This document shows, in pieces, positions 1-1,942 of a stretch of 27,261 nucleotides of DNA. The stretch covers positions 1 to 27,261 of the forward strand of contig JAYEOW010000044.1 in the NCBI GenBank assembly GCA_034723395.1. Direction: 5' to 3'. The translations under genes and the position numbers were made by a program. Numbering within the stretch: position 1 is the stretch's first letter; each line of letters begins with the position of its first letter. Origin of the DNA: Candidatus Margulisiibacteriota bacterium. Its GTDB lineage: Bacteria > Margulisbacteria > WOR-1 > O2-12-FULL-45-9. The notes under the pieces are model-generated. The model was not told where the DNA came from and made no database searches. It worked only from the letters and a program-made list of their open reading frames with translations.

Positions 1-130
1 TAATTGCCTCCGCTGCCCGGTTTTCAATTCCCTTTGGACCGCGAATCTCAAGAGCTAATGCCCTTCCCCGAAATTTAATATTTCTTGACACCTGCTGTAC
101 AAAAGTCAGTCTTGCTCCTGTAATTGCTAT
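1..130 (-). CDS. Hypothetical protein, 5' part only (runs off window start); apparent ATA start codon, possibly a pseudogene
   Basis: Minus strand reads AGGAGG-aaaataaa-ATA GCA ATT ACA GGA..., then an open frame (I/M)AITGARLTFVQQVSRNIKFRGRALALEIRGPKGIENRAAEAI to the window edge. Confidence 0.5.
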   Translation of the reverse strand, partial: MAITGARLTFVQQVSRNIKFRGRALALEIRGPKGIENRAAEAI

Positions 131-149
131 TTTATTTTCCTCCTATATT

Positions 150-178
150 TTGACTTACAGTTAATTAAGCACTATAAT
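150..178 (+). promoter_or_regulatory. Near-consensus sigma70 promoter
   Basis: TTGACT (150-155), 17-bp spacer, TATAAT (173-178). Confidence 0.6.
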
Positions 179-209
179 ATTATCGTAACATTTTACGGGA
201 AATTTCACT
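179..209 (-). promoter_or_regulatory. Putative sigma28/FliA-like promoter for the gene at 1-130
   Basis: Minus strand TGAAATTTCCCGTAAAATGTTACGATAAT. CGATAA resembles the sigma28 -10 (GCCGATAA); a same-spaced motif occurs at 23699-23726. Confidence 0.45.
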
Positions 210-240
210 TTTTTTGTGATTATTTTCAATTATTTTTATT

Positions 241-283
241 AAAATCGCTATTCGCGGGGTGTGGGGCGCGAATAGCGATTTTT
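241..283. terminator. Bidirectional intrinsic terminator-like hairpin
   Basis: Perfect 16-bp stem AAAATCGCTATTCGCG (241-256) / CGCGAATAGCGATTTT (267-282), 10-nt loop, T-runs on both strands. Confidence 0.75.
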
Positions 284-509
284 CCTAGTTTCCACATTCT
301 ATATAAATCCTTCTTCTTGCAGCCATGAATAGTGTTGGGGATGATCAGAGAAAAGGTTCGGAAAGGGACGACTCGAGCCATTTTTTTCAGCAGTCGAACT
401 CCCAAGGTGGGGCGGCGACCTTGAGTAAGTAAGGAATAGAAGACCCCACCCCTAAAAAGACTGGAATCAAGTTAATTCTTATCTAGAGGTGACTTTATCC
501 AAGTATCAC

Positions 510-722
510 TCAACTCACGAATAACTCTTTAATTCTATCCGATCCATAATAATAAACATTTCGGCCCTGTTTATTTGAAGTTAAAAACCCTTTATTAACC
601 AGATCTTTAGTTGCTGTCATGCGGGTTACCTGATTAATGTTTATATGCGTTTTTAATGTTGTATATTCATCTGGGGTGCTATGTAGATATTGCAGCAATT
701 GAACCTGGCGAACATTAAAGAA
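510..722 (-). pseudogene. C-terminal winged-helix remnant of a probable Fic-family protein
   Basis: Frame open from an in-frame TAA (723-725): FFNVRQVQLLQYLH...VTRMTATKDLVNKGFLTSNKQGRNVYY. This resembles the N.RQ..LL...TA..DL..L...G.L...K.GR wHTH tail of Fic proteins. No Fic catalytic motif, no RBS. Confidence 0.5.
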
Positions 723-733
723 TTAAAGGGTAA

Positions 734-1306
734 TTATTTGTCCTCAACAAAGACAATCGCACGGCCGTTAAAACGATAACTAGGATTGCTGTAGTTTTGG
801 TAGGGAAGGCCCGAACGGCGGAGAACAAAAGTATCGCTGATTTCTGTTTCTGTCCACACCCAGTTTTCCCCGGATAATTGCCCTTTCGCCTGTCCCTGTT
901 CCCACTCTGGTTCAGTTGGAAGCCTAAACTTTCTGCCGGTTTTCTCGCTTAACCATTTTGCAAATGCTTTGCCGTCATGTAAATGTACAAAAGTTACGGC
1001 TTTCCCCGCTTGCGACGGGTCATCAAGAACGGCCCGAAGTTTTTCAGCATTATGGCCTTCGATCTTATATCCGCTCTCCTCCACAAACTGCCTGAGTTGG
1101 CCAACGGTTAATTCGTGTTCCATGATCCCCAGATTTTTTGAGATCTCTATCGTTTCAGGGACCTCTATTTTAGCTTCCCGGGACAAGACTTCAGCCCCCC
1201 GGGATGATACTGCGGCGGTAACCTTCCCAATCTCACCCGCGGTAAGATTAGCCATATCTGCGGCACGGGCCAATCTATTAGGCTTTTCCGACAACCTTTT
1301 GCGCAA
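734..1306 (-). CDS. FGE-sulfatase (SUMF1)/C-type lectin-fold protein; candidate DGR target; N-terminus uncertain or truncated
   Basis: Motifs IMEHELTVGQLRQFV, VTFVHLHDGKAFAKWLSEKTGRKFRLPTEPEWE, GENWVWT. TTG start without SD, only 27 bp from the divergent gene. Confidence 0.8.
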   Translation of the reverse strand: MRKRLSEKPNRLARAADMANLTAGEIGKVTAAVSSRGAEVLSREAKIEVPETIEISKNLGIMEHELTVGQLRQFVEESGYKIEGHNAEKLRAVLDDPSQAGKAVTFVHLHDGKAFAKWLSEKTGRKFRLPTEPEWEQGQAKGQLSGENWVWTETEISDTFVLRRSGLPYQNYSNPSYRFNGRAIVFVEDK

Positions 1307-1333
1307 TTTTTTATACTTATGCTAGAATAATCC

Positions 1334-1942
1334 ATGCTTCACAAGATAATTGGCGCATTAACTATATTGTTCGCTTGTATTTCCATTGCAAACGCAGAGA
1401 TCTCTAATGCCACAAAATTCCCTACCGCCGAGATACAAGGGAAAGGGCCTCTCCCCTATAATTACCGGATAATCGACAAGTCCTTACACGCAGGCGGACA
1501 CCCGCTAAATCCCCGGACAAAATTTAAAAACAGCGACGAACAGGTATGGGCGATCCTCGACCATTTAGTATCTTATAATGTTAAAACAGTCATCGATTTT
1601 GAAAACAGCTGGGCGATCCAGAACAGGTATAAATATTTCCTTAAACACGCCGGGATAAACAGGGTCCATGTCCCGATGCACGCTTTTAAATTACCAAACA
1701 AACAAGAATGGAAAAAGATAAAAAAAGCAATAAATGAAGGCCCTGTCTATATCCATTGTAAGTGGGGCGCCGACCGCACCGGGTCGGTAATCGGCCGTTA
1801 TCTGGTTGAAGAAAAAGGATATGCGCCAGAAGAGGCCTACCGGGCGGTCATTTCAGGCGGGACACACGCCGGCTATTTAGGAGGGCTCAAGACCAGCTGG
1901 CCCTTTGAAAAGATGAAACAGTTTATCTGGCTGGGGCCTTAG
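1334..1942 (+). CDS. Exported cysteine-dependent (tyrosine/dual-specificity-type) phosphatase
   Basis: PTP loop VYIHCKWGADRTG (CX5R); N-terminal signal peptide ending ANA. Confidence 0.85.
   Translation: MLHKIIGALTILFACISIANAEISNATKFPTAEIQGKGPLPYNYRIIDKSLHAGGHPLNPRTKFKNSDEQVWAILDHLVSYNVKTVIDFENSWAIQNRYKYFLKHAGINRVHVPMHAFKLPNKQEWKKIKKAINEGPVYIHCKWGADRTGSVIGRYLVEEKGYAPEEAYRAVISGGTHAGYLGGLKTSWPFEKMKQFIWLGP

What the first reader, a model, noticed from the sequence alone, without database searches (positions are those of the whole stretch)
734..841. Orphan DGR-type variable region at the 3' end of an FGE/C-lectin-fold gene
Seen: of the 32 codons from ATC (841) to GTT (746), 29 end in C/T, and many (GGC, TAC, AAC, TAC, AGC, AAT, AGT, TAT, AAC, GGC) derive from AAC/AAT by changes at A only. 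They sit between scaffold-like codons (GTT CTC CGC ... CCT ... CGT ... GCG ... GTT GAG GAC), and a pyrimidine-rich TTACCCTTTAATTCTTT follows the stop. Established: FGE-type CLec domains are a classic DGR target fold (e.g. Treponema TvpA), with the VR at the extreme C-terminus and A-specific mutagenesis from an AAY-rich template. Inference: this is a remote (trans) target of a DGR whose RT/TR/Avd lies elsewhere, or a relic of one. I found no TR or RT in this window. This is the strongest candidate for an unusual system here.
Basis: partly seen in the sequence, partly recalled or inferred. Interest (0 to 1): 0.8.

Follow-up and report, generated by a model that had tools for sequence, protein, structure and literature searches.

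The report
Orphan, probably fossil DGR variable region
The end of this small lectin-fold gene is a real leftover of a retroelement-driven hypermutation system (DGR) that relatives still carry intact, but here the machinery is gone from the locus and the region looks frozen, a known kind of decay.

Summary
29 of 32 codons (841-746, minus strand) end in C/T, which is the top 0.01% of 32-codon windows in this genome.

The gene (734-1306, minus) is a compact FGE-sulfatase/C-lectin-fold protein. Its last ~30 codons are homologous, codon for codon, to variable regions (VRs) of intact target-Avd-RT-TR cassettes in related genomes. In G057, for example, 14 of 14 TR/VR differences fall at template adenines. 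Our gene also keeps the VR-specific end GAGGACAAATAA and the first 21 nt of a conserved post-stop pyrimidine element. So it is a DGR-type VR.

It does not look like a working target:
- No Avd or RT lies beside it, and none is in the 97%-complete assembly.
- The genome does hold a TR 3' end, cut off at the ends of contigs C25 and C39. Our VR differs from it at 13 of 32 non-adenine sites.
- Residues invariant in the 11 aligned homologs are changed in ours.
- The downstream element is truncated and followed by unrelated DNA.
- One contig of the source run crosses the VR without variants, which is weak evidence.

Best reading: a fossil orphan VR (about 0.6). A live trans target of an unassembled TR remains possible (about 0.25). 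Remote and degenerate DGR targets are already in print.

The parts
734..1306 (-). Gene for a compact FGE-sulfatase/C-type-lectin-fold protein. It is 190 aa from the TTG at 1306; the database's own call starts 4 codons later and gives 186 aa (P0002).
   Evidence: ORF, translation. Pfam PF03781 E 1.9e-13 over residues 43-157. PDB sequence and fold matches are all FGE-like proteins (ToxD, PvdO, OvoA, FGE), but the model is weak at mean pLDDT 58.7.
744..829 (-). VR-homologous segment, from TTT GTT CTC CGC ... to ... GTT GA. It has the same length and codon register as the 88-nt TR/VR repeat of relative G057.
   Evidence: There are 19 codons between GTTCTCCGC and GCG, as in the G057 template. P and R scaffold codons sit at the same places. 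16 of 27 template-A sites and 20 of 56 non-A sites differ from the G057 TR.
734..745 (-). VR-specific 3' end GAGGACAAATAA (last codons plus stop). It is the counterpart of the element that distinguishes VR (GAGGAC...) from TR (GAATACTTAA) in the relatives' cassettes, so it is IMH-like by position.
   Evidence: The pattern GTYGAGGACNNNTAA is unique in the own genome (1 exact match).
713..733 (-). First part of the conserved post-VR pyrimidine-rich element (TTACCCTTTAATTCTTTAATG). Similarity to relatives stops after it.
   Evidence: Alignment of 15 VR 3' flanks, raw flanks.
510..698 (-). 62-aa ORF that looks like the C-terminal winged-helix piece of a larger gene. It sits where relatives have the rest of the post-VR element and avd. 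It is not a DGR part and marks replacement of the downstream cassette.
   Evidence: Only sub-threshold Pfam matches to wHTH families, E 0.006-0.03. No Avd or RT similarity anywhere on contig C44.
444..459 (-). CTTTTTAGGGGTGGGG, a possible displaced remnant of the G-rich end of the post-VR element (relatives have ...CTTTGAGGGGTGGGGYGGCCGG just before avd). Weak.
   Evidence: AGGGGTGGGG occurs 9 times in the genome, and the T-run-preceded form occurs once, here.

Best explanation
The gene encodes a small, non-enzymatic FGE/C-lectin-fold binding protein. Its C-terminal ~30 residues were once written by a diversity-generating retroelement (DGR).

In this bacterial lineage a conserved cassette has the order target gene with 3' VR, then avd, then RT, then TR. 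It copies an AAC-rich template into the VR with errors at adenines. That process leaves NNC/NNT codons between fixed scaffold codons. The VR ends in GAGGAC..., where the template has GAATAC..., and a pyrimidine-rich element follows the stop.

Shown: the window's gene carries all of these marks, so its codon pattern is a footprint of mutagenic retrohoming.

Inferred: at this locus the cassette has been lost and the downstream DNA replaced. The VR no longer matches the one template end that the genome still shows. It is now a frozen ('fossil') orphan VR that evolves by ordinary point mutation and encodes a single fixed binding surface.
For: DGR origin:
- Homologs occur in 36 of 61 related genomes and RVT_1 in 17 of 61.
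- In 6 genomes a homolog lies directly upstream of an RT on the same strand.
- Self-BLAST of 6 such loci gave TR/VR pairs with adenine-biased differences in 5. Differences at template A were 14 of 14 in G057, 19 of 21 in G029, 18 of 26 in G012, 14 of 17 in G007 and 13 of 16 in G032. G048 gave no clean pair.
- The cassette genes are bAvd (E 4.3e-18) and RVT_1 (E 4.7e-25).
- Our segment has the same length and register as the G057 template.
- It has the same GAGGACAAATAA end and post-stop element.
- 14 homolog tails show the same codon bias, 22-28 of 32 ending in C/T.

Relic status:
- No RVT_1 in the assembly.
- No Avd or RT by tblastn with 11 cassette proteins; best E was 0.39.
- The only bAvd-like hit is sub-threshold, on C46, with no RT nearby.
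- No TR-like copy by BLAST or by an adenine-tolerant scan.
- The genome's only TR piece (45 nt at the ends of C25 and C39) differs from our VR at 13 of 32 non-A sites.
- Against the G057 TR we have 20 of 56 non-A mismatches, the most among the 10 same-length VRs compared. The other nine have 0, 2, 6, 6, 7, 9, 9, 13 and 13.
- The 3' scaffold that is near-constant elsewhere (GCGGTTCGTCTTGTCGA) reads GCGATTGTCTTTGTTGA here, changing AVRLV to AIVFV.
- The post-VR element is cut after 21 nt.
- One 5,408-nt contig of the source run spans 352-2000 with 0 differences, and no alternative contigs cover the VR.
- The closed genome G031 has 4 homologs and no RVT_1, so such orphans persist without the machinery.
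Against: - The ORF is intact. The 12-nt VR end and 21-nt post-stop element are better conserved than the coding VR scaffold. That would fit continued use, or a VR written by a different template rather than decay.
- The genome does contain a DGR template end on two contig ends, so RT, Avd and a full TR may simply be unassembled. Only 45 nt of that TR are visible.
- TR scaffolds differ between relatives, so mismatches to foreign TRs do not by themselves prove decay.
- The run is held only as contigs, which drop rare variants, so cannot exclude low-level diversification.
- No close ortholog exists (best 56% identity), so the age of the VR cannot be estimated.
Confidence: 0.6

Rival explanations
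1. Live remote (trans) target. A complete DGR exists in this organism but was not assembled or binned. It still rewrites this VR, using the conserved GAGGAC end and post-stop element as its landing signal.
For: - TR 3' ends with the lineage's conserved TR flank sit at the ends of contigs C25 and C39, so at least part of a DGR is in the genome and the assembly breaks inside it.
- The VR end and 21-nt post-stop element are intact and the ORF is intact.
- Remote targets are documented for other DGRs (Wu et al. 2018, PMC5758913, passages read; Dore et al. 2024, PMC10907252, passages read).
- Relatives carry several VR- or TR-like copies per genome.
Against: - The visible TR piece mismatches the VR at 13 of 32 non-A sites. 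The field's criterion for a trans target is identity at non-adenine sites.
- The two contig ends carry the same TR, not two different ones.
- No RT or Avd was found in a 97%-complete assembly.
- No variant contigs cross the VR.
- A search of public metagenome contigs for a template with this VR's own 3' scaffold gave 2 matches. Both are unrelated DNA without an AAC run or TR flank.
Confidence: 0.25
2. Not DGR-related. The C/T-ending codons reflect amino-acid composition and ordinary codon usage at the C-terminus of an FGE-like domain.
For: - The stretch is rich in F, Y, N and S(AGY), whose codons must end in C/T.
- No TR or RT lies in the window.
Against: - The bias also holds in four-fold boxes: 14 of 16, P 0.003.
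- Only 44 of 454,107 genome windows are as extreme.
- The segment is homologous in register to VRs with proven adenine-specific TR partners.
- Non-coding sequence after the stop is shared with those VRs.
Confidence: 0.04

Closest known systems
Treponema denticola TvpA and its remote paralogous DGR targets (as described in Wu et al. 2018, PMC5758913; passages read)
   Same: FGE-type C-lectin fold without enzyme function, a VR at the extreme C-terminus, and several related target genes scattered in the genome away from the RT.
   Different: Treponema's remote VRs match the TR apart from adenine sites. Ours does not match the only TR piece seen (13 of 32 non-A sites differ). Our protein is much smaller, and only half of the FGE profile is matched. 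No sequence or structure comparison with TvpA itself was made here.
'Degenerate' DGR loci and candidate remote targets of Thiohalocapsa PB-PSB1 (Dore et al. 2024, PMC10907252; passages read)
   Same: The genome has DGR loci in which key machinery is missing or pseudogenized. It also has targets without a local RT, including one non-varying target.
   Different: [quoted passage not shown] Here the match fails and no variation is visible in contigs. The lineage and target family are also different.
Intact target-avd-RT-TR cassettes of related genomes found here (e.g. G057:C4, G007:C29, G029:C189)
   Same: Same target family, same VR length and register, same VR end and post-stop element, and the same TR 3' flank as the TR piece in this genome.
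   Different: Ours lacks avd, RT and TR at the locus. Its post-VR element is truncated and its scaffold codons are changed.

Membership tests
DGR variable region (by descent) | Sequence homology, in register, to VRs that have a cognate TR with adenine-specific differences | tested here: met
   5 of 6 relatives' loci have such pairs. Our segment has the same length, the same scaffold codons (GTTCTCCGC, CCN, CGN, GCG) and AAY-derived codons opposite template AAC/AAT.
DGR variable region (by descent) | VR at the 3' end of a C-type-lectin/FGE-fold target gene | tested here: met
   Pfam PF03781 above cut-off. The VR segment is the last ~30 codons. Fold support is weak: pLDDT 58.7, and top Foldseek hits are FGE-like at TM about 0.3.
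DGR variable region (by descent) | VR-specific 3' end (IMH-like) that differs from the TR end | tested here: met
   GAGGACAAATAA in ours and in relatives' VRs, against GAATACTTAA in all 8 TRs collected and in the own-genome TR piece. That it functions as an IMH is inferred from position only.
Active DGR target (cis or trans) | A TR in the same genome identical to the VR at non-adenine sites | tested here: not met
   BLAST and the adenine-tolerant scan find no copy. The TR piece at the C25/C39 ends differs at 13 of 32 non-A sites. Only 45 nt of that TR are assembled.
Active DGR target (cis or trans) | DGR reverse transcriptase in the genome | tested here: inconclusive
   No RVT_1 match and no tblastn hit below E 0.39 with 6 RT and 5 Avd queries in a 97%-complete, 55-contig assembly. 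However, the assembly breaks inside a TR, so the RT may be unassembled.
Active DGR target (cis or trans) | Accessory gene avd | tested here: not met
   tblastn was negative. The only bAvd-like hit is 25 bits against a cut-off of 40, on C46, with no RT nearby.
Active DGR target (cis or trans) | Population-level hypervariation confined to the VR | tested here: inconclusive
   One contig of the probable source run spans 352-2000 with 0 differences and no alternative contigs. Contigs drop rare variants, and no raw reads were available.
Formylglycine-generating enzyme (catalytic FGE) | Complete FGE domain with the catalytic cysteine pair in the C-terminal part | tested here: not met
   Only profile positions 22-139 of 255 are matched. 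Residues 130-190 contain no cysteine. That FGE uses a Cys pair is recalled, consistent with the C336S/C341S entry titles.

The most novel reading that the evidence does not exclude
The VR is still a live landing pad. An unassembled DGR of this genome rewrites it in trans, recognising only the conserved 33 nt at and after the stop (GAGGAC end plus polypyrimidine element). That element, conserved across a whole class of small-genome bacteria and lacking an obvious hairpin, would be a new type of DGR target-recognition signal that tolerates a diverged 3' scaffold.
Probability: 0.15. Interest if true: 0.55.

Novelty: new member of a known kind. Interest (0 to 1): 0.35.

Why it matters
- A DGR footprint (NNY codons, VR-specific end, post-stop element) can be recognised from sequence alone even when RT and TR are absent.
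- In this lineage of small-genome uncultured bacteria, compact FGE-fold DGR targets are common and are often left as orphans after the cassette decays. 25 of the 36 genomes with homologs have no RVT_1 hit.
- Fossil VRs of this kind are natural records of 'frozen' binding specificities. They also warn against counting DGR targets only next to RTs.
- For this genome, the finding flags an assembly gap that hides a DGR, at the ends of contigs C25 and C39.
- No new mechanism is implied.

Tried and rejected
- A TR in the own genome by BLAST and by an ungapped adenine-tolerant scan. Nothing was found. The best non-self windows were A-rich tracts. These scans missed the TR piece because it is cut by contig ends. 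It was found only with the 13-mer of the relatives' TR flank.
- A cognate VR for that TR piece in the assembly. None was found; the best other site had 11 non-A mismatches of 32.
- The same TR piece in public metagenome contigs, as a 50-nt exact pattern: 0 matches.
- A template carrying this VR's own 3' scaffold: 2 matches, both unrelated DNA.
- The paralog on C53 (153 aa) as a second VR gene. It ends soon after the WTES motif, and no VR remnant appears in any frame.
- Synteny of the flanking phosphatase-like and M23 peptidase genes with relatives' loci: no hits within the held flanks.
- A conserved hairpin in the post-VR element. RNAalifold gave only a weak G-U-rich pairing (-7.2) and single DNA folds disagreed with each other, so no structure is claimed.
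- tRNA or Rfam genes in 1-2000: none apart from a sub-threshold 23S-methyl match, 24.7 bits against 50.
- The search for related loci with alignment A2 failed for lack of a conserved stretch. With P0004 it returned one record titled only 'uncultured bacterium', so no taxonomy was gained.
- Read laying on runs X2 and X3 of the same study. They hold next to none of the stretch and say nothing either way.
- Structure prediction: the VR part has pLDDT below 50, so no statement on surface exposure is made.

Full report
**Observation.**

On the minus strand the ORF 734-1306 ends ...ISDTFVLRRSGLPYQNYSNPSYRFNGRAIVFVEDK. The genome average for ORFs of 150 aa or more is 0.51. Only 44 of 454,107 32-codon windows reach 29, and they lie in 9 ORFs including this one.

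The bias is not just amino-acid choice. 14 of the 16 four-fold-box codons end in C/T against 0.518 genome-wide, P = 0.003. The protein matches Pfam FGE-sulfatase (E 1.9e-13, residues 43-157 on profile positions 22-139 of 255).

**Own genome, first pass.**

The window is the whole contig C44 of a 1.68-Mb, 55-contig, 97%-complete assembly.
- BLAST of 700-900 finds only itself.
- An ungapped scan that tolerates mismatches at adenines finds nothing better than A-rich tracts.
- RVT_1 has no match.
- FGE-sulfatase has two matches, this gene and a 153-aa paralog on C53. The paralog stops shortly after the WTES motif and has no VR remnant.

**Relatives show what the segment is.**

The protein database holds only three non-self relatives, at 56, 45 and 30% identity. 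Six-frame searches of 61 genomes (this one and 60 relatives) find homologs in 36, often several per genome, and RVT_1 in 17. In six genomes a homolog lies just upstream of an RT on the same strand: G007, G012, G029, G032, G048 and G057.

Self-BLAST of these six loci gives repeat pairs in five. Their differences are concentrated at adenines of one copy: 14 of 14 (G057), 19 of 21 (G029), 18 of 26 (G012), 14 of 17 (G007) and 13 of 16 (G032). G048 has no clean pair and a shortened RT.

The layout is target gene with a 3' VR, then a 113-aa bAvd protein (E 4.3e-18), then a ~340-aa RT (RVT_1, E 4.7e-25), then the TR. These are ordinary DGR cassettes.

**Homology of our segment to those VRs.**

Our codons GTT CTC CGC ... 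GCG span the same 19 intervening codons as the G057 template. Pro and Arg scaffold codons sit at the same places, and AAY-derived codons sit opposite template AAC/AAT.

All relatives' VRs end GTCGAGGAC-NNN-TAA, where their TRs end GTCGAATACTTAA. Ours ends GTTGAGGACAAATAA. After the stop, 15 aligned VR flanks share a pyrimidine-rich element, and ours matches it for 21 nt before diverging.

Fourteen homolog tails have the same codon bias, 22-28 of 32.

**A template end does exist in this genome.**

The relatives' TR flank 13-mer occurs exactly twice in the assembly, where about 0.05 would be expected for a random 13-mer. Both copies are at contig ends: C25, a 3.7-kb contig, and C39. Both ends read ...AAC CCT GAG AAC CGT TAT AAC AAC AAC GCG GCC CGT CTT GTC GAA TAC TTA A, followed by the conserved post-TR region. 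They are identical for about 125 nt and then diverge. The assembly therefore breaks inside a TR, and RT, avd and the cis target are missing from the bin.

C25 continues with an AlbA_2/HATPase_c_4 gene and a tRNA-Tyr.

Our VR is not a copy of this TR. Over the 45 visible nt it differs at 13 of 32 non-A sites and 7 of 13 A sites, and no other site in the assembly fits that TR better than chance.

**Signs of a fossil.**

- Against the same-format G057 TR our VR has 20 of 56 non-A mismatches. This is the most among the ten same-length VRs compared; the other nine have 0, 2, 6, 6, 7, 9, 9, 13 and 13. Three further VRs differ by one codon in length and were not counted.
- Positions that are invariant or nearly so in the 11 aligned homologs are changed in ours: L to S, R to Q, E to S, and AVRLV to AIVFV. 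At DNA level the last change looks like a one-base loss and a one-base gain six bases apart in the otherwise constant GCGGTTCGTCTTGTCGA (my reading).
- Downstream, relatives continue with the G-rich end of the element and avd, or with avd remnants in several orphans. Ours continues with about 240 nt of unrelated DNA carrying a 62-aa winged-helix fragment. A possible displaced CTTTTTAGGGGTGGGG lies at 459-444 (weak).
- In the only run that holds the stretch, which is the probable source and is kept as contigs, one 5,408-nt contig covers 352-2000 with no differences and no alternative contigs cross the VR. Contigs drop rare variants, so this is weak evidence.
- G031, a one-contig genome, has four homologs and no RVT_1. 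One of them keeps 28 of 32 C/T-ending codons and the full post-VR element. Orphans of this family therefore persist without the machinery.
- By my count, 25 of the 36 genomes with homologs have no RVT_1 hit. Many of these assemblies are incomplete, and some RVT_1 hits are of non-DGR size.

**What keeps the alternative alive.**

The ORF is intact. The non-coding 33 nt at and after the stop are better kept than the coding scaffold. TR scaffolds differ among relatives, so part of the mismatch could reflect a different, unseen template rather than decay. The genome demonstrably hides DGR parts.

Searches of public metagenome contigs gave no help. The TR piece had 0 matches. A template with this VR's own scaffold had 2 matches, both unrelated DNA.

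I put the fossil reading at about 0.6, a live trans target at about 0.25, and a non-DGR origin at under 0.05.

**Function.**

PDB sequence hits (ToxD, PvdO, CalU17, OvoA) and Foldseek hits on a weak model (mean pLDDT 58.7, VR part below 50) are all FGE-like folds. Only half of the FGE profile is matched, and no cysteine occurs in residues 130-190, so catalysis is unlikely. By analogy with TvpA (passage in PMC5758913), the protein is a ligand-binding lectin-fold module whose binding face was the VR. What it binds and where it sits in the cell were not tested. No hydrophobic N-terminal stretch is evident (my reading; no predictor was run).

**Comparison with what is known.**

Remote targets and the A-only criterion for assigning them are described in Wu et al. 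2018 (PMC5758913; passages). Degenerate loci, trans targets and one non-varying orphan are described in Dore et al. 2024 (PMC10907252; passages). Roux et al. 2021 (PMC8144416; passages) note that metagenome surveys miss remote targets. The finding is thus a new member of a known kind.

I did not test that. Two full-text searches found no paper that treats DGRs in that group:
- 'diversity-generating retroelement' with 'Margulisbacteria': 0 papers.
- 'diversity-generating' with 'Margulis': 6 papers, none about this by title or abstract in the listing.

Supplementary tables of the surveys, which may list phyla, were not opened.

Noticed in passing
G000 contig C25 3689-3741 (minus) and contig C39 32561-32613 (minus); loci L058, L059: Both contigs end inside a DGR template repeat followed by the lineage's conserved post-TR region. 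They are identical for about 125 nt and then diverge. RT, avd and the cis target are missing from the assembly, so there are two genomic contexts or strain variants of one DGR 3' end.
   Followed up: partly
relatives' loci L012-L030, L051-L056 (VR 3' flanks); window 713-733: A conserved non-coding element lies between the VR stop and avd: repeated CTTTTA-like pyrimidine blocks, then GAGGGGTGGGGYGGCCGG. It is kept even in orphans and in an RT-less closed genome. No convincing hairpin was found, and its role is unexplained (target recognition, avd promoter or leader).
   Followed up: partly
L012 (G036:C13), L015 (G012:C40), L028 (G027:C13), L030 (G015:C125), L018 (G031:C1): Several 'orphan' homologs are followed by truncated or deleted avd remnants. 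These are decayed cis cassettes at different stages.
   Followed up: partly
G012:C45:3318-3433 and G029:C143:571-658: Second TR-like copies whose matches extend into the TR-specific flank, in genomes that already have a cassette. This implies several DGR loci per genome.
   Followed up: no
window 1-215 and 327-422: Window 1-215 is 99.5% identical to the start of contig C2. Window 327-381 and 378-422 recur on C25 (2015-1961 and 1856-1812) in the opposite orientation relative to the upstream gene. The source run has an alternative contig with 14 differences over 241-350. This is a tangle of short repeats near the contig end.
   Followed up: partly
window 241-279 (minus strand): A GC-rich inverted repeat (ATCGCTATTCGCG...CGCGAATAGCGAT) followed by TTTT. 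It is terminator-like and lies downstream of the VR gene and the wHTH fragment. It overlaps the sub-threshold Rfam 23S-methyl match on the plus strand (189-287, 24.7 bits against 50).
   Followed up: no
G000:C53 (L010 1405-1866 minus; 1877-2368 plus): A 153-aa paralog of the FGE-like gene lacks the VR part. It abuts a 163-aa ORF that I took for a transposase or integrase fragment by eye, but Pfam gave no match.
   Followed up: partly
window 1306-1334: Only 27 nt separate the TTG start of the VR gene from the ATG of the divergent neighbour. That neighbour has a signal-peptide-like N-terminus and an HCKWGADRTG phosphatase-like motif by eye, not searched. There is little room for two promoters. 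Expression of the VR gene is untested.
   Followed up: no
G000:C46:1960-2259 (L061 1390-1818 plus): A stand-alone four-helix-bundle, Avd-like ORF (bAvd 25 bits, below the 40-bit cut-off) with no RT nearby. It is probably the common 23S-IVS-type protein and not a DGR part.
   Followed up: partly
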